In this document: piece after piece, positions 170-11,125 of the stretch
Numbering within the stretch: the stretch's first letter is position 1
Layout: every line of letters begins with the position of its first letter
Assembly: GCA_002713205.1 (NCBI GenBank)
Contig: PAVW01000003.1
Location: 16,201-28,924, forward strand
From: Nitrososphaerota archaeon
GTDB lineage: Archaea > Thermoproteota > Nitrososphaeria > Nitrososphaerales > UBA57
Length of the DNA: 12,724 nt
Reading direction: 5' to 3'
Translations under genes and position numbers: made by a program
The notes under the pieces: generated by a model
Databases searched by the model: none
What the model saw: only the letters and a program-made list of their open reading frames with translations
What the model was told of the DNA's origin: nothing

Positions 170-1540
170 TTATAGTGTTTTTTCTATTATTGTAATACTT
201 CCTATTTTTGAATTACTAGGATCAGCATACCAGATATTCCCCTGTTTATCAATAGTTAACCACTGCACTAAGGGCGCTACTGATGGTATTTGAATTAGTT
301 TTGTTAATGCGGTTTCTGGATCCAGAACAGCTATCTTGTCTGTCACATGTTCTGCATACCATATATTTCCATATCTATCTTCAATCATCCCCGAAACCAA
401 TGCATATTCACTCTGCACAACATATCTATCAAACGTTAATGCTATCGGATCAAATCTTGTTATATTAGTACCACCATGTTCTCCAATCCATATCTTCCCA
501 TTAGATTCTTGTAAGAAAGACGCTGGTGTTACTAATCTTGTATCTATTGGTTGATATTCTACAATTTCGTTTGAAATAGGATCTAAAAGACCTATACTTC
601 CTCTACCAATTTCCGTAAACCACACACGTTCAAATTCATCTATCAGAATTGCTGCAGGGTGAATATCTTCATCTAAGTCAAATATCTTGAAGTTTTCACT
701 CTTGGAATCAAATCTTATAATCTTGCTTTTATTTATTATGGCAATCCATACATTATCATTAGAATCAATTTGTAAATCAATCATGAATCCTTCTATAGGA
801 GGTCTGAAAGTTCTTGTTACATGTTCGTCTGGATCTATATAGCCAAAAGTAATCGTCTTAGTATCAGTGAACCAAACTCTCCCTTTACTATCCATTGCCA
901 ATTTCATCGATGATTCCCCATCATGACTAAAGAATTCAAAGTCTTTAGTTTCAAGATTGAATTTCCATATTCCAGGATTAATAATATCACTTATCCATAT
1001 GACATCTCTTTTTTTATCGTAAAGAGGCACAAGAGGAAGTGATTTTGGATCCAATATTGAATATTCTTTTAAAATAAATTCAAGTTCGTTTAAACTAATC
1101 TTTGGAACTTCAATTACGTTCCCTATATGTCCCCTTGCAATCTTATTGCTATTCTTATCAAAAACTAACCATTCATAGGATGAATTTGTCTTACCTATAA
1201 CTATCACTTGCAAAGACTCACCAGATTTGACAGGTTGATTGTCTGTATGTACAGTTACTGTACTCTGATCAATCCTATCCCTATCCCATCCTCGAGCTTT
1301 TATGAATTTGATGTCACCATCTATTATTTTGAGTTTAAATTCGAATATAGGCTGTGCATTGAAATTCTTAATTACTAGTAATGTGAGTTTATTCTTTTGT
1401 TTCATTGATATAGAAACATCATCATGACTAACAGACTCTTCAGCTAATACACTAGTGATTCTGATTTGTTGTGAAGGCACTACTAATACTATAAAGAGAA
1501 CCACAACTAGAAATGTAGTGATAATTACTTTTAGTTTCAA
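170..1540 (-). CDS. Secreted or membrane-anchored seven-bladed beta-propeller protein (Vgb/NHL-type repeats) with an N-terminal Ig-like domain
   Basis: 456-aa ORF with a TTG start (caa at 1538-1540 on +). It has an N-terminal hydrophobic signal/anchor (KVIITTFLVVVLFIVLVVP). Seven repeats of about 40-45 aa each carry a [VI]W[FIY] strand (VIWISD, RVWFTD, NVWIAI, RVWFTE, KIWIGE, NIWYAE, NIWYAD). These are typically followed by I-x-x-[FLI]-D-P turns, the pattern I associate with streptogramin-lyase-like (COG4257, from memory) and NHL propellers. Function is not inferable. Confidence 0.75.
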   Translation of the reverse strand: MKLKVIITTFLVVVLFIVLVVPSQQIRITSVLAEESVSHDDVSISMKQKNKLTLLVIKNFNAQPIFEFKLKIIDGDIKFIKARGWDRDRIDQSTVTVHTDNQPVKSGESLQVIVIGKTNSSYEWLVFDKNSNKIARGHIGNVIEVPKISLNELEFILKEYSILDPKSLPLVPLYDKKRDVIWISDIINPGIWKFNLETKDFEFFSHDGESSMKLAMDSKGRVWFTDTKTITFGYIDPDEHVTRTFRPPIEGFMIDLQIDSNDNVWIAIINKSKIIRFDSKSENFKIFDLDEDIHPAAILIDEFERVWFTEIGRGSIGLLDPISNEIVEYQPIDTRLVTPASFLQESNGKIWIGEHGGTNITRFDPIALTFDRYVVQSEYALVSGMIEDRYGNIWYAEHVTDKIAVLDPETALTKLIQIPSVAPLVQWLTIDKQGNIWYADPSNSKIGSITIIEKTL

Positions 1541-1644: not shown

Positions 1645-2103
1645 TTAAACTGATTGAACAACAAACTGCCCCATATGTAATGGATGCCCTTCACCACAGA
1701 ATATAGTACAGAAATAAGTGAAAATACCTGTTTTGTCCGCCGTGAACTTGATTACAGATTGGGCATTGGGACTGATATGTATACTACCGATTTCTGGATA
1801 ACCATCTATGGCAAACCCGTGTGGTATATCCAAACTCTCTAACATAATAGTTACTGTCTGACCTTCATATACAGTTATAGAACAATAATCGAACCTCCAC
1901 TGATATGCATGCATCGTTATTTCTATTGTATCTTTGGATGAATCAGCTTTGAAAACATCCTCGTAACACTCGTTAGCATTTTGTAATCGTGTACCAAGAA
2001 TTTCATCAGATTCATCTATTCGCTGCTGCATAGATATAAAAACCATGAATATAGCAACAGTGATTATACCACCTGTCACACCTGCCATTATCATTCTATT
2101 CAT
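1645..2103 (-). CDS. N-terminally membrane-anchored CuA-type cupredoxin (cytochrome c oxidase subunit II / NosZ C-terminal domain-like)
   Basis: 152-aa ORF with one N-terminal TM helix (MAGVTGGIITVAIFMVFISM). The cupredoxin ligand pattern is H95 in LDIPHGFAIDG, then C132-TIF-C136-GEG-H140-PL-H143-M144 (codons 1672-1710). This compares with canonical CuA H...C-x3-C-x3-H-x2-M (e.g. CSEICGxxHxxM). No oxidase subunit I gene is adjacent. Confidence 0.8.
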   Translation of the reverse strand: MNRMIMAGVTGGIITVAIFMVFISMQQRIDESDEILGTRLQNANECYEDVFKADSSKDTIEITMHAYQWRFDYCSITVYEGQTVTIMLESLDIPHGFAIDGYPEIGSIHISPNAQSVIKFTADKTGIFTYFCTIFCGEGHPLHMGQFVVQSV

Positions 2104-2275: not shown

Positions 2276-2830
2276 ATGAACATTATGAAAAATATAGTGT
2301 TAGGAATAGCTGTAACAGCAGTATTTGCCACAATAATAGCAATATCATTGACGTCGGTAGTAGATAGTACAGAACCAGAAATTGGTACTGACGCTGTCAC
2401 TTTATTGCTCAATTACAAAAGAATACCAGCAGGAGACTTCATACACGTATATGATTCTACACCATTCCCTATAGCACAAGGACATATTGCAGTAAAAGTA
2501 GATTGTAATGAAGCTGGACACGGTATTGCATCACTTGCAATAGGTGTTGCACCAGAATTAGAAGTGAAAAAGCTGACAATGGATAATATGGTTCATGAAT
2601 TATCTTCCCATGGAGATATGTGTCTTTACCATATAGATTTACCACCAGAACATGGTTCGATGGTAACGGATGTAGCACTAATGAATACTAGTAGCAAATC
2701 AATAAGGCTTGGACCAACTGCCACAGTAGTTATGCATGTACAAAGCTTCGGTGACGAAATGGAACACAAAGAAAGTACAGACATGAAGCACGGAGATATG
2801 GGAAAAGAAGGTATGAAAATGGATAAATAA
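2276..2830 (+). CDS. N-terminally anchored extracytoplasmic protein with a Met/His-rich C-terminal tail (putative metal, likely copper, binding)
   Basis: 184-aa ORF with an N-terminal TM/signal anchor (IVLGIAVTAVFATIIAISL). The last 32 residues, MHVQSFGDEMEHKESTDMKHGDMGKEGMKMDK (2732-2827), contain 7 Met and 4 His. It is transcribed divergently from the cupredoxin gene. The start could also be the ATG at 2285. Confidence 0.7.
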   Translation: MNIMKNIVLGIAVTAVFATIIAISLTSVVDSTEPEIGTDAVTLLLNYKRIPAGDFIHVYDSTPFPIAQGHIAVKVDCNEAGHGIASLAIGVAPELEVKKLTMDNMVHELSSHGDMCLYHIDLPPEHGSMVTDVALMNTSSKSIRLGPTATVVMHVQSFGDEMEHKESTDMKHGDMGKEGMKMDK

Positions 2831-2892: not shown

Positions 2893-3435
2893 ATGATGTA
2901 TAGAATGTATTATTTTTCATCATTTATTATTCTTACAGTGATAATATTAACAGGAGTTAATGTGGTATTTGCTCAGGAAACAGTAGAAGATGAAAACAAA
3001 CCGATGATAGCGCCTACAGATAAGGGTTCCATTGATGTCGAACTCTCATGGTCGCCTATCCCGTTAGAACCAGAGCAGACAACGCAATTGCATATACGTT
3101 TCCTTCAGAAAGATAAAGTGACACTACAACAACATATAGATTATAAAATATTTGTAGAGAATGATGGAATAGAAGTCTTCAGAATACCTCTCACACATAC
3201 GAACCCTGGTGAAGTTACCATACCATACGCTTTTACATCAACAGGTAGCTTCTTGATAGGTGTTGACGTTGAAGGTATACTCTTTCAACCCATATCGAAA
3301 GAAACCGCTACATTTTCAGTGGTAGTAGTACCAGAATTCCCAATTAGTGTGATGTTTATAATGACCATTGTTATAGCTGCTACTATAATTTCGATAAGAA
3401 TGAAGCCTTACGCAAAATCTATATATAAAAATTAA
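2893..3435 (+). CDS. Secreted single-module Ig-like protein with a PEFG-CTERM-like archaeosortase sorting signal
   Basis: 180-aa ORF with a signal peptide (FSSFIILTVIILTGVNVVFA|QE). One module of about 100 aa follows (IDVELSWSPIPLEPEQTTQLHIRFLQ...GSFLIGVDVEG). The C-terminus is tripartite: VVPEFPIS (PEFP codons 3331-3342), a hydrophobic helix VMFIMTIVIAATIISI, then basic RMK. Confidence 0.8.
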   Translation: MMYRMYYFSSFIILTVIILTGVNVVFAQETVEDENKPMIAPTDKGSIDVELSWSPIPLEPEQTTQLHIRFLQKDKVTLQQHIDYKIFVENDGIEVFRIPLTHTNPGEVTIPYAFTSTGSFLIGVDVEGILFQPISKETATFSVVVVPEFPISVMFIMTIVIAATIISIRMKPYAKSIYKN

Positions 3436-3446
3436 TTGTTTAGAAA

Positions 3447-4874
3447 ATGATGAAAAATAATGTATTACTATACATGTTTATAACATCTGCATTTATTGTT
3501 TCAATGATAAATTTTATACCTGTATTTGGTCATGGTCTGGCGGGTGATATGCCTCCACCAATTGATCTAAGTGGTAAAAATGTAACTGTTTTCGTTAAAA
3601 TGAACCCTGCTACGTTATCTGCTGCTGCTCCTGAAGATGCAACTATAGGAATAAGATTTTTTGATGTCACAACGGATGAGAACTTACAACAGGTAACATA
3701 CAGGATAGCGATTAAGAAAGATGGTAATTTGTTAATGAATGACTGGTTCTATCATCCTAATGGTGATCTGACGATTAAGATAAAACCCAAAGATACTGAA
3801 AAAGTAAGAATCTATGGCGATAAAGAACCACAACTCGGAGGATGGTATGGTAGGGGTGGACCACCAGTTGTTGAAGCGCCTATATTCCTTGAAGGTGGTC
3901 TATACAATATCTATGTAGAAATATTCACTGTAGGTACAACAAGGCAAATACTTGATCCACCATTACAATTTGATGCTTGGGTTAGTGTGGCGGAAGATAA
4001 TTCATTCACTGTAGTTAATAATGATAATGTATATCCAGTAATAATCAGAAGTTACTTCGATACGATCAATAAGCTTGAGTTCGAAGATGATAGTAATATG
4101 TTAAGATTTAGCATGCCGTTTAATTGGGAACCAGAATTTGTAGAATTTGTATCTATGATACATGAAGAAATTATAATTCCAAAAGATTTTAAATCATTAG
4201 TTGAGTCTGATACTTTCCAAGCATATGTGAATGATATTCCAGTAAGAGATAGAACGTTGCTTGTTGATCCTTATTCTTTTGAAGATAAATTAGTAATACA
4301 TTACTTGATAGCAACTCAGGAACTTATCAATATAAGTGAACAAATTTTAACAGATTCAACATATCCAGAAGAGATGATATTCACACTTAAGCCAATTGAA
4401 GGAACACAAACTAGAGAAGACACTAACATGAATTTGATTACTGATAATGGAAAAGTAAGAATACTAGTATCGTGGGATCAAAAAATGATCGAACCTGATA
4501 AACCTGTGAATTTTGATATTGTGTTTTTCGATGAGAATAAAAATAGTATACTCCGGGATGTTAATTATAATTTTAAGATATTCGATGATAGAGGTAATGA
4601 GATCTTCGTTAAAAACAATATTCTTAGTAATGAAGGTATAGATAGACTAACATACACGTTTGAAAATGAAGGTACTATAACATTACAGGTATATGTTATG
4701 GGTACAGGTTCGTTTCCATCTCAAATGGACACCTCCTTCATGGGAATTGTTGAAGGTTCGATAAGTGTTGTGCCAGAATTTCCTATAGGAGTAATTATAG
4801 CTATGGTAGGAGCCATTTCGGCTGTACTATTGTTCACACATAACAGATTAATGCCTAATCATTTGAAAGTTTAG
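3447..4874 (+). CDS. Large secreted multi-domain protein with a PEFG-CTERM-like sorting signal (paralogue A)
   Basis: 475-aa ORF starting 11 nt after the stop of 2893-3435 on the same strand, so it is likely co-transcribed. It has a signal peptide (FITSAFIVSMINFIPVFG|HG). The C-terminal module VRILVSWDQKMIEPDKPVNFDIVFFD is of the same type as in 2893-3435. It ends in VVPEFPIG (PEFP codons 4773-4784) + VIIAMVGAISAVLLF + THNR. It is colinear with 4855-6225. Confidence 0.85.
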   Translation: MMKNNVLLYMFITSAFIVSMINFIPVFGHGLAGDMPPPIDLSGKNVTVFVKMNPATLSAAAPEDATIGIRFFDVTTDENLQQVTYRIAIKKDGNLLMNDWFYHPNGDLTIKIKPKDTEKVRIYGDKEPQLGGWYGRGGPPVVEAPIFLEGGLYNIYVEIFTVGTTRQILDPPLQFDAWVSVAEDNSFTVVNNDNVYPVIIRSYFDTINKLEFEDDSNMLRFSMPFNWEPEFVEFVSMIHEEIIIPKDFKSLVESDTFQAYVNDIPVRDRTLLVDPYSFEDKLVIHYLIATQELINISEQILTDSTYPEEMIFTLKPIEGTQTREDTNMNLITDNGKVRILVSWDQKMIEPDKPVNFDIVFFDENKNSILRDVNYNFKIFDDRGNEIFVKNNILSNEGIDRLTYTFENEGTITLQVYVMGTGSFPSQMDTSFMGIVEGSISVVPEFPIGVIIAMVGAISAVLLFTHNRLMPNHLKV

Positions 4875-6225
4875 TTAACGATGGTCTAATTCTTATGATT
4901 ACTACTGCAGATACTAATGTGATCATCGTGAATAATGGACCAAATGGAAATTCTGGTATTACAGTAAATAGTAACGGTGCAGCCTCTCCAGTATTATTTA
5001 TATTTTCAATCAGTAACAGTATAGTACCTGTCTGTTCTTTTGTAAAAGTATAATCTTGTACTATAGCCCCTATTGGAGCTTTATGGTGTTTTCTAAAGAT
5101 CTCTGTTCCATCTTTTAGGAGTACAAAGTCAGCAGTAGAATGTCTTAATGTATCAAATGTTTTTGGATCTCTCAATGTAATTATGAATTTTGTATTCGTA
5201 TCGGGTTCTATAAGAGCAGGACTCCATGAAATTTGTAACAGGAAATTTTCTTTTCCAGACATAATTTGCACCGGGAACTTTGGAACTTCCCTTGGAATAA
5301 GAGAAAAGACAGCAGTATTCTGCTCGGATTTTTCCTTTTGTGCTATTCTTATTAACTTGTCCTTTGATATCACGAAATGAACTATTCGTGTATTCTCATA
5401 TGAATAATCATCAATCAATATTTCTCTATTAGAAAGTTCAACACCATTTATTGTACCTACATAACTATTAGACATTAACTCTGTCAAATCATGAGGAATA
5501 TGTACCTCTTCATGCACCAATGGAACCTGGCTAAGGTAGTTTACATTCCAGTATAATGGCATTGAAAAAGTTATCATTCGTAAAGATTCATCATAATAAA
5601 TATTGCTTATTTGATCGTAGTAAGTTTTGATAAAAATATCATGTTGCTTACCGATATCATCCAATACCTGATGACGTGTGGTTTTACCTATACTTGCATA
5701 TAGATCGAAGTTTAATGGTTCTGCAAGTTTATTCTCATACTGTCCCAAGGATAAAACACTAATATTGTAATGATAAAGACCTCCGTCAAGTACTGGGCCT
5801 TTTACCACTGCAGGAATTTCCCGATTAGTGACTACTGCGTTGTAAAGAGATTCTCTATTGCCGATCACTTCGTTTTTTTCGGTATCAGTATGTTCAAATC
5901 TAATCGCCACTATACCATCACTACTATGGAACTGATCGTCAAGTAGAAGTTCATTAGTGCGCATCATCTTTACACGCAAAGTTATATGGGGAATAGTAGT
6001 GTCTGTATTAACTTCACGAATACTTATGAAAGCAGTACCAACTCTATCATCTTCTTCAAGAAATACTGGTTTCATATCTAGTGTGACGTAAATCCTTACA
6101 CCATCAACCAAAATCTGTCTTGATTCATCAAAACCCAATCCTTGCCCGAACGAGGGTAATTGCATGGTGCTGAATAGCAATACCCCTGATACAATTAACA
6201 TAAAAATTGGAATGGATGAATTCAT
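4855..6225 (-). CDS. Large secreted multi-domain protein with a PEFG-CTERM-like sorting signal (paralogue B)
   Basis: 456-aa ORF with a signal peptide (IFMLIVSGVLLFSTMQLPSFG|QG). The C-terminal module is FLLQISWSPALIEPDTNTKFIITLRD. It ends in VIPEFPFG (PEFP codons 4945-4956 on the minus strand) + PLFTMITLVSAVVII + RIR. Blocks of similarity to 3447-4874 run along its whole length. Its stop (4855-4857) lies inside the 3' end of 3447-4874. Confidence 0.85.
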   Translation of the reverse strand: MNSSIPIFMLIVSGVLLFSTMQLPSFGQGLGFDESRQILVDGVRIYVTLDMKPVFLEEDDRVGTAFISIREVNTDTTIPHITLRVKMMRTNELLLDDQFHSSDGIVAIRFEHTDTEKNEVIGNRESLYNAVVTNREIPAVVKGPVLDGGLYHYNISVLSLGQYENKLAEPLNFDLYASIGKTTRHQVLDDIGKQHDIFIKTYYDQISNIYYDESLRMITFSMPLYWNVNYLSQVPLVHEEVHIPHDLTELMSNSYVGTINGVELSNREILIDDYSYENTRIVHFVISKDKLIRIAQKEKSEQNTAVFSLIPREVPKFPVQIMSGKENFLLQISWSPALIEPDTNTKFIITLRDPKTFDTLRHSTADFVLLKDGTEIFRKHHKAPIGAIVQDYTFTKEQTGTILLLIENINNTGEAAPLLFTVIPEFPFGPLFTMITLVSAVVIIRIRPSLTKLSND

Positions 6226-6269: not shown

Positions 6270-6956
6270 CTAGAAATCTTCATTTCTTCTTTTACGAGTC
6301 AACGAAACTATTGCTATGATTACACCAGCAGCACCAAGTCCCATCCCTAACATGCCAAAATTATAAGCATTTTCTGTATCGTAACGAAAATCAGTAACTA
6401 TTCCGATACTCTGTTCTGTCTTACTCTCCACATTCCTGATCTTGTCCGACATCTGATCAACTGTAGCTTGTAATTGATTCACAGAAGACTGTATCTGCGA
6501 TGTAAGGTTCTTCAATTCTGTAGATTCTACAGAGATATCGGGAAATGATATCTTCTTTTTATCCTCAACATCTTCCACAGGAATCTCTGCGTCAACATCA
6601 TTGTTGCTAACAATACCTTGTATCACGATCATGTAACTACCAAGCCTAGTAGGTATTATTGGAGAAGTATAGAGACCTAACTCTTGAGTAGGTTCGATAT
6701 CTAGTATTTTTGTAACACCGCCATACTTTATTTCCGCCTCTAGACTTTTGGGATCGATAATAAGCGGTTTAGATTCTTTTTTAAATTCTAACACTATAGC
6801 ATTGAGCTCCCCCACAAGTGGTGGTTCGTTAATCCATCCAGTTTTTATAGTAATATCTCCAACATGAATCTCCGTATGAGCATAAGCAGAATTAAGAACA
6901 GAGATAGAAAGCATAAATGTTAAAAATACAATTATTGAACATCTAACTATATACAT
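6270..6956 (-). CDS. Secreted, C-terminally anchored protein with a predicted N-terminal His (CopC/YcnI-like design), a coiled-coil stalk and a TM + basic tail
   Basis: The ORF track starts at 7028, but that codon is TTG and adds 24 non-signal residues. The first ATG (cat at 6954-6956 on +) gives MYIVRCSIIVFLTFMLSISVLNSAYA|HTEIHVGD, a textbook signal peptide. The mature protein begins with His, followed by a beta-rich domain (ITIKTGWINEPPLVGELNAIVLEF). Next come a heptad-like helical segment (LKNLTSQIQSSVNQLQATVDQMSDKIRNVESK), a TM helix (MLGMGLGAAGVIIAIVSL) and TRKRRNEDF. The family call is inference. Confidence 0.7.
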   Translation of the reverse strand: MYIVRCSIIVFLTFMLSISVLNSAYAHTEIHVGDITIKTGWINEPPLVGELNAIVLEFKKESKPLIIDPKSLEAEIKYGGVTKILDIEPTQELGLYTSPIIPTRLGSYMIVIQGIVSNNDVDAEIPVEDVEDKKKISFPDISVESTELKNLTSQIQSSVNQLQATVDQMSDKIRNVESKTEQSIGIVTDFRYDTENAYNFGMLGMGLGAAGVIIAIVSLTRKRRNEDF

Positions 6957-7188
6957 AGAAATGATATTTTTATTTCCACATATTACTTTAACGAAAATTC
7001 CATAATTCTTATCAATTGATTTGTACAACCCTATATATCTCTGTAAACTTGATATTTAACAACTCACTATTCATGAACTACACCTCAATATTGATATATG
7101 GCTATAAAGGCTATATTTCGAAATATATGCAAAGGTTTATGGATAATCACAAGGAATTATTGAATAACTAATAAAATTGGTGTATGAT

Positions 7189-8757
7189 ATGAAATGGAAG
7201 ACATTAGAACATAATGGTGTTGTATTCCCTCCTGAATACAAGCCTAAAGGCTTTAAGATAAAGATCAAAGAAAAAACTATAGAGCTCAATATACAGCAAG
7301 AAGAGATGGCTGTTGCATGGGCTAAGAAGAAGGATACTCCATACGTACAGGATCAAGTTTTTGTGGAAAATTTCGTTAAAGATTTTCTTAGATTGTTTTC
7401 TCCAGAGTTCAGAGATGCTACTATAAATGATATTAGCTTTAGCGAGATCTATGAGTGGATGAATAAAGAAAGTGAAGTTGTTATAGACAAGGAAACCAAG
7501 AAGAAACTAACAGTCGAAAGGAAGAGAATAAGAGAGGAACTAAAGGGTAAATATGGTATAGCCAATGTTGATGGTCAGACCTTCGACATATCCAACTGGA
7601 TGGTAGAACCTCCAGGTATATTCATGGGTAGAGGTAAACATCCATTACGAGGTAAATGGAAACCCAGAATTAACCGTGAAGATGTAACTCTAAACCTTGG
7701 AGAAGATGTAAAAGTGTCTCCAGGAGACTGGGGTCAGATCGTACACGATCATGATTCCATGTGGCTTGCAAGATGGATTGATAAATTAGTTGGTAAAGAG
7801 AAATATGTATGGCTTTCAGATGCTGCCACTTTAAGACAAGAACGAGATAAGGATAAGTATGATAAAGCAAGTAAGCTTAGTCAACAGATAGAGAAAGTTA
7901 TCAATAAGACCTACAAAGCAATGAAATCGAATAACATCAAAGAATGTAAGATAGCTACCGTATGCTATCTAATATACAAACTCGCAATGAGGGTAGGTGA
8001 TGAAAAAGATCCAGATGAGACAGACACGGTTGGTGCTACAACATTAAGGGTGGAGCATATGAAATTAACCGATAGAATTATAGAATTTGATTTTCTGGGA
8101 AAAGATAGTGTTAGATGGCAGAAAAGCATAGAGTTTGACGGTAGGAATAATGTAATTTATGAAAATATGAGGAAATTTATTAAGGGAAAGAAAGATGATG
8201 AATTGATATTTTCGGGTATAACTTCAAGACATGTAAACAATTTCTTTAATAATATAGTTCTAGGGTTAAGTGCAAAAGTTTTTAGAACTCATCTTGCTAC
8301 AGAAATTGTTAGGCATTATCTGTCAAGTGTTGATAGTAAGATTACAAAAAGTTCTGAATTTGTAAAGATATATCATGTAAGAGTGGCTAACCTTGAAGCT
8401 GCAATAACATGTAACCATAAAAAGGCTCCAACAAAGAATTTTGAACAGATATTAGATAAGAAGCGTGAGAAGATTAAGAATATGGAAGAGGCTAAACCAA
8501 ATACCAATAAACAGAAGGAAAAACTCAAGGAGCGAAAGGAGAAGGCAGAACTTCAGTTGAAATTGGCTGAAAGTACTAAGGATTACAACCTTGGAACATC
8601 TCTTCGTAATTACATAGATCCTAGAGTGGTCAAGGCATGGGCAGATCATGTAGATTTAGAGTGGAAGAAGATCTATACGAGTGCGTTACAAAGGAAGTTC
8701 TTGTGGGTAGAGAAGGAAACGCCAAGATGGCAAAAGATAGTAATTAAATCACATTAG
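7189..8757 (+). CDS. top1: DNA topoisomerase IB (eukaryote-type topoisomerase I)
   Basis: Motifs match human TOP1 as I recall it. KWKTLEHNGVVFPPEY matches KWKFLEHKGPVFAPPY. TVGATTLRVEH matches TVGCCSLRVEH (Arg). FLGKDSVRW matches FLGKDSIRY (Lys, codon 8101-8103). AKVFRTH matches AKVFRTY (Arg). ITCNHKKAP matches ILCNHQRAP (His). A Lys/Glu-rich coiled-coil linker follows, then LGTSLRNYIDPR matches LGTSKLNYLDPR, with the catalytic Tyr codon at 8611-8613. The ORF-track start at 7177 is TTG, so I prefer the ATG at 7189 (MKWKTLEH). Confidence 0.95.
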   Translation: MKWKTLEHNGVVFPPEYKPKGFKIKIKEKTIELNIQQEEMAVAWAKKKDTPYVQDQVFVENFVKDFLRLFSPEFRDATINDISFSEIYEWMNKESEVVIDKETKKKLTVERKRIREELKGKYGIANVDGQTFDISNWMVEPPGIFMGRGKHPLRGKWKPRINREDVTLNLGEDVKVSPGDWGQIVHDHDSMWLARWIDKLVGKEKYVWLSDAATLRQERDKDKYDKASKLSQQIEKVINKTYKAMKSNNIKECKIATVCYLIYKLAMRVGDEKDPDETDTVGATTLRVEHMKLTDRIIEFDFLGKDSVRWQKSIEFDGRNNVIYENMRKFIKGKKDDELIFSGITSRHVNNFFNNIVLGLSAKVFRTHLATEIVRHYLSSVDSKITKSSEFVKIYHVRVANLEAAITCNHKKAPTKNFEQILDKKREKIKNMEEAKPNTNKQKEKLKERKEKAELQLKLAESTKDYNLGTSLRNYIDPRVVKAWADHVDLEWKKIYTSALQRKFLWVEKETPRWQKIVIKSH

Positions 8758-9022: not shown

Positions 9023-10360
9023 ATGTTAATTCGTAACTTGTTGGGCTATAAGATAAAAAATAAAGAATGCATATATTGTTTTTTCGTATTCATTACAATC
9101 ATATCGTATTTCAATCTAGCTTACGCGCAGGACTATACATCAGAATCACTACTTATGACAGTCTTTACCAATGGAAAAACCCTAGTTGAATACAGATTAA
9201 GTACTAATGCTACAGTTCCTATATCAACAGTGCCGTTGTTTGGTAATGTATTTGAGCAATTGATAACTATTAATGAAGATAACCTACCTATTGATAATAG
9301 AATGCAAAATGGTTCATTGGTTATGGATACATTTGGTGTTTCTACTATATTCGTAATATATACAACTCCAGATCTTGTAAACGGAAAAGACAAGATCTGG
9401 ACCTTTACTGTAGACTCACCTATAGATACTTCTATAAGATTACCCGAAGAAAGCATCATAATCGGCTTAAACCAGATGCCGAATTCGATCAAGTTATACA
9501 AAAACCAATACGTGTTGATTATGCCAGAAGGTCATAACGAGATTAGTTATATTATAAGTACTCTATACACAAAAGAGCAAACCATAGTAGCTTTAAGCGA
9601 GGCAGAGAAAATTATAGAAGACCACAAGAATAAGGGTGTAGTTGTTAGTAGTGCTGAAAGTAAATTGAATGAAGCAAAGAATGCTTTTGATAATGCTAAG
9701 TATACATATGCAGAAATTCTTGCCAATGATGTAAAGACTATTACCAATAATACTAGTTATATCGCAATACTTGCAAGCAATGCATTAAGTGAAGCCAAGA
9801 CAACTATAAATGAGAACAACAAACAGGGTTTTGATATTTTCAATGCGAACCAGCTTTTTGGTCAAGCAGACCAAGAATACATAAACGGAAATTACGATGA
9901 AGCATTAAACTTAGCAAAACAAGCAAAGACTATTGCGTTAGATACAAGAAATGATTCAGTGATTTCTTTTGATCTATTATATTTAATTACTGGTATTATT
10001 ACGATGTCTGCTGTAGCTGGTACTGTTGTGTATATACACTTCAGAAAGAAAACTGTGATAGGAAAAACTTCGTCTAGAATAATCAATGGGCTTGTAGTTA
10101 AGAAAAGGAGAATCATAAATCTAACTAAGATATTAACTGAAAAACCTTATCTGCGAGAAGATGATAAAGATGTTCTAAACTTCATTGTAGAAAACGGTGG
10201 AGAGGTGTTTGAAAATGAAATCAGAGACAGATTTGATCTCCCAAAGACTACTGTATGGAGATTGGTTAAGCGTCTGAAACGTGAAGATCTCGTTGATATA
10301 GAGAAAGTTGATAGACAGAATCTAATAAGAATTAGGGAACAATTTACCAAAACTGACTAA
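9023..10360 (+). CDS. Membrane-tethered winged-helix transcriptional regulator with a large extracytoplasmic domain
   Basis: 445-aa ORF with a signal peptide/anchor (CIYCFFVFITIISYFNLAYA|QD). A beta-rich ectodomain of about 150 aa is followed by two helical repeats of about 50 aa (9596-9940). One TM helix follows (FDLLYLITGIITMSAVAGTVVYIHF, from 9968). The cytoplasmic C-terminus (from about 10145) is DVLNFIVENGGEVFENEIRDRFDLPKTTVWRLVKRLKREDLVDIEKVDRQNLIRI, a MarR/TrmB/ArsR-type HTH plus wing. The architecture resembles what I recall as COG2512, membrane-associated regulators. Confidence 0.8.
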   Translation: MLIRNLLGYKIKNKECIYCFFVFITIISYFNLAYAQDYTSESLLMTVFTNGKTLVEYRLSTNATVPISTVPLFGNVFEQLITINEDNLPIDNRMQNGSLVMDTFGVSTIFVIYTTPDLVNGKDKIWTFTVDSPIDTSIRLPEESIIIGLNQMPNSIKLYKNQYVLIMPEGHNEISYIISTLYTKEQTIVALSEAEKIIEDHKNKGVVVSSAESKLNEAKNAFDNAKYTYAEILANDVKTITNNTSYIAILASNALSEAKTTINENNKQGFDIFNANQLFGQADQEYINGNYDEALNLAKQAKTIALDTRNDSVISFDLLYLITGIITMSAVAGTVVYIHFRKKTVIGKTSSRIINGLVVKKRRIINLTKILTEKPYLREDDKDVLNFIVENGGEVFENEIRDRFDLPKTTVWRLVKRLKREDLVDIEKVDRQNLIRIREQFTKTD

Positions 10361-10603: not shown

Positions 10604-11125
10604 GTGAAGTTTTTTACCAGTATAGGAATATCTATATTTTTATCTCTACTGATTCTTAACCCAACTACAAGCTCTAACGCCCATCAATTGTTTAATTCTG
10701 AAGAAAGAAGAATTGGTGGTTATATTATGCAGATCGGTACAGAGCCAGAAATACCAGCAGTTGGAAAACAGATCAAAATACTATTCAGAGCAAGTGACCG
10801 TGATTATAATGATTTAATTGATGTAAAAATTGGTATGCGAATATACAAAGATGATGTGTTATTAGAAGAATTACAACCGAGAATTTTAAGTGATGGACAT
10901 TTCGATAAGGAATATACATTTACTGATGCTGGTATTCATATAGTTGAAGTAGATCTGTATACATGGAAAGGTAACGTGATAACAGAAAAGTTTAACATAA
11001 GTACTCTAAATCCGTTTGGATATATATTCTATTCAATGGTAATTATCGGGGTATTATTTCCGGCATCTTTATTTGTATTTCTGTTATTCCATAAAAAAAT
11101 TAAAGGAAAAAATTTCACAGTGTAA
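10604..11125 (+). CDS. Secreted single-module protein with a predicted N-terminal His and an NPFG + TM + basic C-terminus
   Basis: 173-aa ORF with a GTG start and a signal peptide (ISIFLSLLILNPTTSSNA|HQLF). An Ig-like module follows (IMQIGTEPEIPAVGKQIKILFRASD...GIHIVEVDL). The C-terminus is NPFGYIFYSMVIIGVLFPASLFVFLLF + HKKIKGK. The N-terminal segment resembles that of 6270-6956 (G-x-I-x3-G-x3-EP-x3-VG-x4-I). Confidence 0.7.
   Translation: MKFFTSIGISIFLSLLILNPTTSSNAHQLFNSEERRIGGYIMQIGTEPEIPAVGKQIKILFRASDRDYNDLIDVKIGMRIYKDDVLLEELQPRILSDGHFDKEYTFTDAGIHIVEVDLYTWKGNVITEKFNISTLNPFGYIFYSMVIIGVLFPASLFVFLLFHKKIKGKNFTV

What the first reader, a model, noticed from the sequence alone, without database searches (positions are those of the whole stretch)
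2893..6225. Three adjacent genes share one C-terminal sorting signal, V-[VI]-P-E-F-P + TM helix + basic tail (PEFG-CTERM-like archaeosortase substrates)
The C-termini are VVPEFPISVMFIMTIVIAATIISIRMK (2893-3435), VVPEFPIGVIIAMVGAISAVLLFTHNR (3447-4874) and VIPEFPFGPLFTMITLVSAVVIIRIRP (4855-6225). Each has the tripartite layout of exosortase/archaeosortase signals: short motif, hydrophobic helix, Arg/Lys cluster. The motif matches what I recall as the thaumarchaeal PEFG-CTERM class. A fourth protein (10604-11125) ends in a possible variant, NPFG-YIFYSMVIIGVLFPASLFVFLLF-HKKIKGK. Three or four substrates within 8 kb suggests a dedicated surface-anchored protein set. The cargo domains themselves appear uncharacterised.
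Basis: partly seen in the sequence, partly recalled or inferred. Interest (0 to 1): 0.7.

Follow-up and report, generated by a model that had tools for sequence, protein, structure and literature searches.

The report
Variant PEFG-type membrane-anchor tails, thaumarchaeon
Three neighbouring genes of a marine ammonia-oxidising archaeon encode related secreted proteins that all end in a lineage-specific "PEFP" version of the known thaumarchaeal PEFG-CTERM anchoring tail; this is a modest extension of a known signal, and the enzyme assumed to process it could not be checked.

Summary
ORFs 2893-3435(+), 3447-4874(+) and 4855-6225(-) each have a signal peptide and end in V-[VI]-P-E-F-P, an 18-residue helix and Arg/Lys. 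There are 3 such motifs against 0.003 expected by chance.

Three corrections apply:
- The proteins are paralogues sharing a macroglobulin-like domain plus tail, so they are not independent.
- The fourth protein (10604-11125) has an unrelated "PFGY" anchor, not a variant of this signal.

TIGR04296 (PEFG-CTERM) is the best NCBIfam hit but stays below its 25-bit cut-off (B 16.5-21.5, A 11.9, C and D none). The class assignment still holds by homology. Orthologues and paralogues of the same cargo family in other Nitrososphaerota end in VVPEFG and pass the cut-off (25.3-32.4 bits).

The fourth motif residue follows lineage: 60 PEFG and 0 PEFP tails in Nitrosopumilaceae/Nitrosotalea loci, and only PEFP/PEIP/PEFA/PEFS in the window clade and Nitrososphaera-type loci. 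An unrelated 256-aa cargo family also carries VVPE[FILV]P.

The genes belong to a conserved copper-associated cluster (CopC/CopD, plastocyanin, cupredoxin).

No archaeosortase was found in 1.28 Mb of related loci, and whole genomes could not be searched. Processing is therefore unproven.

The parts
2893..3435 (+). Gene A, 180 aa. Signal peptide (aa 1-27), one MG-like beta-sandwich domain, then the PEFP tail.
   Evidence: ORF. Matches the C-terminal ~140 aa of B and C. Orthologues at 62-75% identity in L010-L012 keep VVPEFP.
3325..3432 (+). Tail of A: VVPEFP, then helix ISVMFIMTIVIAATIIS, then IRMK, then PYAKSIYKN.
   Evidence: TIGR04296 scores 11.9 bits against a cut-off of 25.
3447..4874 (+). 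Gene B, 475 aa. Signal peptide (aa 1-28), mature N-terminal His29, four beta-sandwich domains, then the PEFP tail. It starts 11 bp after A and is probably co-transcribed with it.
   Evidence: AF2 model with pLDDT 86.8.
4449..4766 (+). Last beta-sandwich domain of B (macroglobulin MG2-like). This is the module shared with A and C.
   Evidence: The profile hits alpha-2-macroglobulin MG domains at E 4e-5. Foldseek matches 2p9r with TM 0.74 and probability 1.00.
4767..4871 (+). Tail of B: VVPEFP, then helix IGVIIAMVGAISAVLLFT, then HNR, then LMPNHLKV.
   Evidence: TIGR04296 scores 16.5 bits on the full protein and 21.5 bits on the tail alone. A helix is predicted at residues 447-468.
4855..6225 (-). 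Gene C, 456 aa (gene callers use a 448-aa start). Full-length paralogue of B, convergent with it and overlapping it by 20 bp.
   Evidence: The orthologue in L010/L011 (66% identity) ends in VVPEFP. C-type paralogues of ~455 aa in Nitrosopumilaceae end in V[VA]PEFG.
4858..4962 (-). Tail of C: VIPEFP, then FGPLFTMITLVSAVVII, then RIR, then PSLTKLSND.
   Evidence: No NCBIfam hit.
10604..11125 (+). Gene D, 173 aa. Signal peptide, N-terminal His, one beta-rich domain, and a plain C-terminal transmembrane anchor beginning NPFGY. It is not part of the PEF system.
   Evidence: No family hit. Among 74 relatives, PFGY is kept only in the closer ones and no Pro-Glu is present.
6270..7028 (-). Gene E, 252 or 228 aa. 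Signal peptide, N-terminal His, beta domain, coiled coil, and its own conserved tail AYNFG + helix + RKRR. It is a conserved neighbour of the A/B/C genes.
   Evidence: about 50 orthologues with AY[ND][FY][GA] + helix + KRK.
1645..2103 (-). Gene G, a membrane-anchored cupredoxin (copper context).
   Evidence: NosZ/CoxB cupredoxin hits at E 1e-13 to 5e-10.
170..1540 (-). Gene H, a Vgb-lyase-type beta-propeller. In related genomes this domain is fused to CopC/CopD.
   Evidence: PF24684 at E 1e-21. Fusions of 920-950 aa with CopC and CopD in L010; homologues of the same size in L011 and many other loci.

Best explanation
A, B and C are Sec-exported, all-beta surface proteins of a marine ammonia-oxidising archaeon. 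Each ends in a lineage-specific PEFP form of the thaumarchaeal PEFG-CTERM sorting and anchoring domain.

Proposed mechanism:
1. The N-terminal signal peptide takes the protein across the membrane.
2. The C-terminal helix stops transfer. The Arg/Lys cluster stays in the cytoplasm, so the last beta-sandwich domain sits directly on the outer membrane face. Only four or five residues (PEFP) lie between the last beta-strand and the helix.
3. The invariant V-V-P-E-F-[P/G] at the membrane interface is read by a dedicated membrane enzyme. By analogy with PGF-CTERM/ArtA and PEP-CTERM/exosortase, that enzyme would remove the helix and attach a lipid.

Shown here: the anatomy, the homology of the tail to PEFG-CTERM, its strict conservation, and its modular exchange with other anchor types. 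Inferred: membrane retention. Untested: step 3.

The cargo belongs to a conserved copper-linked gene cluster and probably acts in copper handling or redox chemistry outside the membrane. This rests on gene neighbourhood and conserved His/Glu residues only.
For: Motif conservation. Among 48 distinct tails, Pro3 and Glu4 are kept in 48/48, Val2, Phe5 and Pro6 in 46/48 and Val1 in 45/48. No helix column exceeds 25/48, although the proteins are only ~33% identical.

Link to PEFG-CTERM:
- B orthologues carry PEFG in L053 and L078, PEFA in L013, PEFS in L063 and PEFQ in P0067.
- L078, L043 (456 aa) and L021 (452 aa) pass TIGR04296 at 26.1, 32.4 and 25.3 bits. A plastocyanin neighbour passes at 47.4 bits.
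- Tail geometry is the same in both forms.

The motif tracks lineage. There are 60 PEFG and 0 PEFP tails in Nitrosopumilaceae/Nitrosotalea loci. There are 13 PEFP + 2 PEIP and 0 PEFG in the window clade. There are 10 PEFP + PEFA + PEFS and 0 PEFG in Nitrososphaera-type loci.

The tail is modular:
- It occurs on an unrelated 256-aa cargo family with VVPE[FILV]P.
- It occurs on L010's 401-aa protein, which has a different N-terminal part.
- In other genomes the same cargo instead carries a soluble 'WW' module or other anchors.

Structure: signal peptides are visible in the sequences, and a C-terminal helix is predicted at B residues 447-468.

Copper context: cupredoxin and propeller genes in the window. 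A multicopper oxidase, a CopC/CopD fusion and plastocyanin in L001, L010 and about 40 other loci. CopC/D clusters with exported proteins of unknown function respond to copper limitation in N. viennensis (PMC7785015).
Against: - None of the window proteins reaches the curated TIGR04296 cut-off.
- No exosortase or archaeosortase gene was found. I screened 71 polytopic ORFs (22 clusters) in 1.28 Mb of related loci and scanned representatives of 18 of the 22 clusters (the other four were already accounted for: Pfam transporter hits, the A-like protein scanned and a PEFG-tailed protein). Four further loci showed none by their precomputed Pfam annotation.
- No open paper links an archaeosortase to Thaumarchaeota.
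- The tails run 8-11 residues past the basic cluster, longer than classical sortase-type signals.
- Inside the window the three tails are explained by paralogy alone.
- In Nitrososphaera-type loci only one cargo family was sampled, so lineage and cargo cannot be separated there.
Confidence: 0.62

Rival explanations
1. The tail is a permanent membrane anchor and is never processed. These would be ordinary type-I membrane proteins, and VVPEFP would be a structural cap that ends the last beta-strand and starts the helix at the lipid interface.
For: - No sorting enzyme was found.
- The fold-to-helix spacing is very tight.
- A further 8-11 cytoplasmic residues follow the basic cluster, often including a conserved Pro.
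- Neighbouring proteins D and E use plain C-terminal helices with their own interface motifs.
Against: A six-residue motif stays invariant across cargo only ~30% identical and across unrelated cargo. The same motif defines a curated sorting-domain family. Its fourth residue switches by lineage across several cargo types. All this is more than a helix cap would normally require.
Confidence: 0.28
2. The tail is cut by a rhomboid-type intramembrane protease, as rhombosortase cuts GlyGly-CTERM, rather than by an archaeosortase. The Pro and Gly at the top of the helix (PEFPxG / PEFG) would supply the helix-breaking residues that rhomboids prefer.
For: - A true rhomboid gene (PF01694, E 1e-31; weak rhombosortase hit at 20 bits) was found.
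- It lies 13-100 bp downstream of the B-family gene, on the same strand, in about 25 loci.
- It lies 168 bp downstream of the PEFG-tailed B orthologue in L053.
Against: Most B orthologues next to the rhomboid have lost the helix tail and carry the 'WW' module instead. No rhomboid lies within 10 kb in the window clade or in Nitrososphaera-type loci. The rhombosortase score is far below its cut-off of 84. Rhomboids are common housekeeping genes.
Confidence: 0.07
3. There is no signal at all. The shared ending is just inherited sequence from a recent triplication of one gene module.
For: A, B and C share a homologous C-terminal domain plus tail.
Against: The paralogues are only 28-30% identical, yet the hexapeptide is kept. 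It is also kept in orthologues from Nitrososphaera to marine clades, and in an unrelated cargo family.
Confidence: 0.03

Closest known systems
PEFG-CTERM sorting domain (NCBIfam/TIGRFAMs TIGR04296), Nitrososphaerota
   Same: - C-terminal position.
- V-V-P-E-F-x, an ~18-residue helix and a basic cluster at the same spacing.
- N-terminal signal peptide.
- Same phylum.
- The same cargo family carries canonical PEFG tails in other genomes.
   Different: - The fourth motif residue is Pro (usually followed by x-Gly) instead of Gly.
- Helix composition differs.
- The cytoplasmic extension is slightly longer.
- Scores are below the 25-bit cut-off.
- The variant is confined to particular lineages.
PEF-CTERM / archaeosortase C (TIGR03024) and PGF-CTERM / archaeosortase A of Euryarchaeota
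   Same: Tripartite layout, and a Pro-Glu-Phe or Pro-Gly-Phe motif at the membrane interface. For PGF-CTERM, ArtA-dependent cleavage and lipid attachment are proven in Haloferax (cited in PMC5744192). This is the model for the proposed mechanism.
   Different: Different phylum. The window's B tail scores only 14.8 bits against PGF-CTERM, and a canonical PEFG plastocyanin tail from L043 scores only 12.4 bits against PEF-CTERM. No Art homologue was shown here. There is no Ser/Thr-rich linker before the motif.
GlyGly-CTERM / rhombosortase
   Same: A C-terminal helix signal cut by a rhomboid-family enzyme. A rhomboid gene is a conserved neighbour of the B family in many genomes.
   Different: There is no Gly-Gly motif. 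The rhomboid is not of the rhombosortase subfamily (20 bits against a cut-off of 84). It is absent from the window locus.
CopC/CopD-linked clusters of exported proteins of unknown function in ammonia-oxidising archaea (PMC7785015)
   Same: The genes sit beside CopC/CopD fusions, plastocyanin, a multicopper oxidase and a cupredoxin.
   Different: No copper binding has been shown for A, B or C. The only hints are His29 after the signal peptide and the invariant His239, Glu241 and His285.

Membership tests
PEFG-CTERM (TIGR04296) | HMM score at or above the curated cut-off (25 bits) | tested here: not met
   B scores 16.5 bits on the full protein and 21.5 on the tail alone. A scores 11.9. C and D have no hit. 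Changing Pro to Gly in B raises the score only to 23.1.
PEFG-CTERM (TIGR04296) | Tripartite C-terminal layout: motif, ~18-20-residue hydrophobic helix, basic cluster, near the C-terminus | tested here: met
   The first basic residue is at position 25-26 from the start of the motif in both PEFP and PEFG tails.
PEFG-CTERM (TIGR04296) | Signature P-E-F-G | tested here: inconclusive
   P-E-F is invariant, but the fourth residue is Pro. Within one orthologous family G, P, A, S and Q interchange, so the difference lies within family variation.
PEFG-CTERM (TIGR04296) | Homology to proteins that are accepted members | tested here: met
   Members of the same cargo family pass the cut-off: L078 26.1, L043 32.4 and L021 25.3 bits.
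PEFG-CTERM (TIGR04296) | N-terminal signal peptide and restriction to Nitrososphaerota | tested here: met
   Signal peptides are visible. All 80 related loci are Nitrososphaerota.
PEFG-CTERM (TIGR04296) | Same tail on unrelated cargo within a genome or lineage | tested here: met
   - The 256-aa family carries VVPE[FILV]P and has no similarity to A, B or C.
- L010's 401-aa protein has a different N-terminal region.
- The PEFG form occurs on plastocyanin and on a multicopper oxidase (PMC9122916).
Archaeosortase/exosortase substrate | A cognate archaeosortase-family gene in the same genome | not testable with these tools
   Only about +/-10 kb around matches could be fetched, and no seed sequence was available. 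None was found among the polytopic ORFs of 1.28 Mb of loci. I recall an NCBI product name 'thaumarchaeosortase', but I could not verify it (0 papers).
Archaeosortase/exosortase substrate | Removal of the C-terminal helix and lipid attachment | not testable with these tools
   This needs C-terminal proteomics or lipid labelling.
PEFG-CTERM variant (protein D, 10604-11125) | Conserved Pro-Glu-Phe-type motif and an HMM match | tested here: not met
   No hit. Relatives keep x-P-F-G-Y only at 32% identity or more, and the motif is lost in more distant ones.
Macroglobulin MG-like beta-sandwich (cargo module shared by A, B and C) | Sequence and fold similarity to the MG2 domain | tested here: met
   The profile against the PDB gives E 4e-5 to alpha-2-macroglobulin. 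Foldseek matches 2p9r with TM 0.74.

The most novel reading that the evidence does not exclude
PEFP-CTERM may be a distinct, lineage-wide recoding of the thaumarchaeal sorting signal, with Gly changed to Pro on every cargo type in the window clade and in Nitrososphaera. That would imply a co-evolving, still unidentified processing enzyme. The rhomboid protease conserved next to this cargo family is one candidate. If so, ammonia-oxidising archaea would attach much of their extracytoplasmic copper and redox machinery through a sorting pathway not yet described in the open literature.
Probability: 0.12. Interest if true: 0.7.

Novelty: new variant of a known kind. Interest (0 to 1): 0.33.

Why it matters
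Ammonia-oxidising archaea carry out their key chemistry with copper proteins outside the cytoplasmic membrane. PEFG-CTERM proteins are co-expressed with amoABC and nirK (bioRxiv 10.1101/175141; PMC9122916).

If the curated model misses whole lineages that use PEFP (Nitrososphaera and this marine clade), their anchored surface proteomes are under-annotated. Here these proteins are all labelled "hypothetical". A retrained model would fix that.

The lineage-specific switch in the motif also gives a handle for finding the enzyme that reads it. The finding itself, however, mainly re-identifies a known type of signal.

Tried and rejected
1. A profile of the tails alone searched against the 5.8-billion-protein set returned only short fragments of the same family. 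It gave no census of cargo types.
2. I looked for an archaeosortase. I screened all ORFs with four or more predicted helices in 90 loci and scanned cluster representatives. They were ZnuB/AztB-type permeases, a rhomboid, transporters (MIP, MFS, Amt, Na/H exchanger, amino-acid permease, ZIP), UbiA and CopC/CopD, with no exosortase. Two extra context look-ups also found none. This shows only that no such gene is linked to these loci.
3. Literature searches for PEFG-CTERM, thaumarchaeosortase, and archaeosortase or exosortase with thaumarchaeal names found no paper naming a cognate enzyme. Haft 2012 is not held in the library.
5. Protein D as a 'NPFG variant' is rejected.
Full report
**Source and layout.** The window is a 32% GC fragment of a marine ammonia-oxidising archaeon (Nitrososphaerota).
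- It encodes a eukaryote-type topoisomerase IB at 7177-8757.
- Protein B occurs, with exactly the same sequence, on TARA Oceans and other marine metagenome contigs.
- All 80 genomic loci recovered with the B-family profile are Nitrososphaerota. The nearest genome is only 67-68% identical, so the clade is poorly represented.

**Observation.** The ORF list confirms three adjacent genes.
- A is 2893-3435 (+), B is 3447-4874 (+) and C is 4855-6225 (-).
- B starts 11 bp after A. C is convergent with B and overlaps its 3' end by 20 bp.
- Each protein starts with a signal peptide.
- The hexapeptide occurs three times, against 0.003 expected in shuffles.

**The three are paralogues.** B and C align end to end (28% identity, E 2e-61). 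A aligns to the last ~140 residues of both.
- An AF2 model of B (pLDDT 86.8) shows a signal helix, four beta-sandwich domains and a C-terminal helix at 447-468.
- Only PEFP lies between the last strand and that helix.
- The last domain, shared with A and C, resembles the macroglobulin MG2 domain. The profile gives E 4e-5 and Foldseek matches 2p9r with TM 0.74.
- The first 300 residues model well (pLDDT 91) but have no significant PDB neighbour.
- No Pfam family covers any of these proteins.

TIGR04296 (PEFG-CTERM, cut-off 25 bits) is the best NCBIfam hit for B and A but stays below threshold.

| Protein | TIGR04296 score |
|---|---|
| B, full protein | 16.5 bits |
| B, tail alone | 21.5 bits |
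| B, tail with Pro changed to Gly | 23.1 bits |
| A | 11.9 bits |
| C | no hit |
| D | no hit |

Taken literally the test fails. This explains why public records call these proteins hypothetical.

**Why the class assignment still holds.**
- Of the 120 best B homologues, 46 end in VVPEF[P/Q/S] + helix + basic residues, from Nitrososphaera gargensis to marine clades.
- Across 48 distinct tails, Pro3 and Glu4 are invariant. Val2, Phe5 and Pro6 are kept in 46/48 and Val1 in 45/48. No helix position exceeds 25/48.
- In the 80 genomic loci, B orthologues end in VVPEFG in Nitrosotalea-type genomes (L053, L078) and in PEFA in L013. They end in PEFS in L063. C-type paralogues of Nitrosopumilaceae end in V[VA]PEFG.
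- Several of these pass the curated cut-off: L078 26.1, L043 32.4 and L021 25.3 bits. A neighbouring plastocyanin passes at 47.4 bits.
- PEFG and PEFP tails share geometry, with the first basic residue 19-20 residues after the motif and often a Pro a few residues later.

**The fourth residue follows lineage.** Counts of distinct tails in the loci I fetched:

| Lineage | PEFG | PEFP and other variants |
|---|---|---|
| Nitrosopumilaceae / Nitrosotalea loci | 60 | 0 |
| Window clade | 0 | 13 PEFP + 2 PEIP |
| Nitrososphaera-type loci | 0 | 10 PEFP + 1 PEFA + 1 PEFS |

In the window clade the Pro form sits on several cargo types: A, B, C, the 401-aa and 272-aa proteins of L010, and an unrelated 256-aa family just upstream of the window. 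That family has seven clusters, all with VVPE[F/I/L/V]P. In Nitrososphaera-type loci only the B family was sampled, so lineage and cargo are confounded there.

**The tail is a movable module.** In most Nitrosopumilaceae the B orthologue has no helix tail. It ends instead in a soluble module, IPxWIKNNAGWWADGQIDDxxFVxGLQWLIxxGII, and NCBI names it 'peptidase'. A orthologues carry this module, or other transmembrane endings, or a CLIATAAFGS... region with several predicted transmembrane helices. Exchange of one cargo between alternative C-terminal devices is what one expects of a surface-retention signal.

**Protein D.** An exhaustive search found 74 relatives. Close ones keep x-P-F-G-Y at the start of the helix, and more distant ones lose it. 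None has Pro-Glu, and the cytoplasmic ends are long and variable. D is a plain C-terminally anchored protein. Protein E (6270-7028) has yet another conserved ending, AY[ND][FY][GA] + helix + KRK-COOH, in about 50 loci.

**Context.** Two gene layouts are relevant.
- The window carries a propeller protein (H), a cupredoxin (G), F, A, B, C and E. The longer contig adds a multicopper oxidase and the 256-aa protein.
- Across Nitrosopumilaceae the conserved cluster holds these genes: ZnuB/AztB-type permease, CopC/CopD-propeller fusion, E, plastocyanin-PEFG, A, B and a rhomboid.
- CopC/D clusters with exported proteins of unknown function are induced by copper limitation in N. viennensis (PMC7785015).
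- PEFG-CTERM proteins are co-expressed with amoABC and nirK (bioRxiv 10.1101/175141; PMC9122916).
- B has a His directly after the signal-peptide cleavage site that is conserved in at least 90% of the alignment, plus invariant His239, Glu241 and His285.
- A copper-related role is plausible, but it rests on inference only.

**Sorting enzyme.** I could not test for an archaeosortase in a whole genome. No seed sequence was available and only +/-10 kb around matches can be fetched.
- Among 71 polytopic ORFs (22 clusters) in 1.28 Mb of loci, representatives were permeases, transporters, UbiA, CopC/CopD and a rhomboid. None was an exosortase.
- No open paper names a thaumarchaeal archaeosortase.
- I recall an NCBI product name 'thaumarchaeosortase', but this is unverified memory.
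- The rhomboid gene lies 13-100 bp downstream of B in about 25 loci, and 168 bp after a PEFG-tailed B in L053. This is a lead. It is weakened because most of those B proteins lack the tail, and no rhomboid lies near the window genes.

**Verdict.** The result is a PEFP variant of a known thaumarchaeal C-terminal signal, on a paralogous, uncharacterised beta-sandwich family within a copper-associated cluster. It is useful for annotation and for the search for the processing enzyme, but not surprising.

Noticed in passing
L025 11747-12523; L053 11391-12122; about 25 further loci (L014-L030, L039, L044, L047, L057, L060, L066, L081, L088): A rhomboid protease gene (PF01694, E 1e-31) sits 13-100 bp downstream of the B-family gene on the same strand in many Nitrosopumilaceae and Nitrosopelagicus genomes. 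It sits 168 bp after the PEFG-tailed orthologue in Nitrosotalea. None is near the window genes.
   Followed up: partly
P0016-P0120 (74 of 120); L014-L090 B and A orthologues: A roughly 40-residue C-terminal module, IPxWIKNNAGWWADGQIDDxxFVxGLQWLIxxGII, replaces the PEF tail in most Nitrosopumilaceae B orthologues and some A orthologues. It has no Pfam hit, and NCBI names these proteins 'peptidase'. It may be a non-covalent surface-binding domain.
   Followed up: partly
window 3531-3533 (His29 of B); D 10604-11125; E 6270-7028: B, D and E all have a His directly after the predicted signal-peptide cleavage site. It is conserved in at least 90% of the B-family alignment and as A|H[QSP]LFNS in the D family. 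The B family also has invariant His239, Glu241 and His285. In a copper gene cluster this suggests metal sites, but that is untested.
   Followed up: partly
window 6270-7028 (-) and about 50 orthologues in L014-L088: The E family has its own conserved tripartite ending, AY[ND][FY][GA] + helix + K/R-K/R-K, usually right at the C-terminus. It is distinct from PEFG and matches no sorting-domain model.
   Followed up: partly
window 4855-4874: The convergent genes B and C overlap by 20 bp at their 3' ends. The same arrangement (30 bp) is kept in L010 and L011.
   Followed up: no
L078 105-1085; L053 7786-8784: A-family orthologues in Nitrosotalea-type genomes carry a CLIATAAFGSELAPQVQFLREYRD motif followed by several predicted transmembrane helices in place of the PEFP tail.
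   Followed up: no
window 2276-2830 (+): Protein F ends in a Met/His-rich stretch (EMEHKESTDMKHGDMGKEGMKMDK) and has a weak BIM1-like copper-acquisition hit (E 0.06). It may be a copper chaperone.
   Followed up: no
window 9023-10360 (+): A 445-aa protein with an N-terminal signal or anchor, an extracytoplasmic part, a transmembrane helix and a C-terminal winged-helix DNA-binding domain (DUF7343/MarR). It looks like a membrane-tethered transcription regulator.
   Followed up: no
L001 699-1469 (-), just upstream of the window; P0159-P0165: A small family of ~256-aa proteins (seven clusters) unrelated to A, B and C, always ending in VVPE[F/I/L/V]P + helix + basic residues. In L091/L092 it sits next to genes for a MauE/DoxX-like protein and a periplasmic binding protein.
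   Followed up: partly
L010 8310-9296 and 17719-18705: Two copies of a DDE transposase flank part of the PEFP gene island in the related contig. A truncated A-like gene (20296-20751) there lacks the tail. This suggests recent rearrangement of the island.
   Followed up: no
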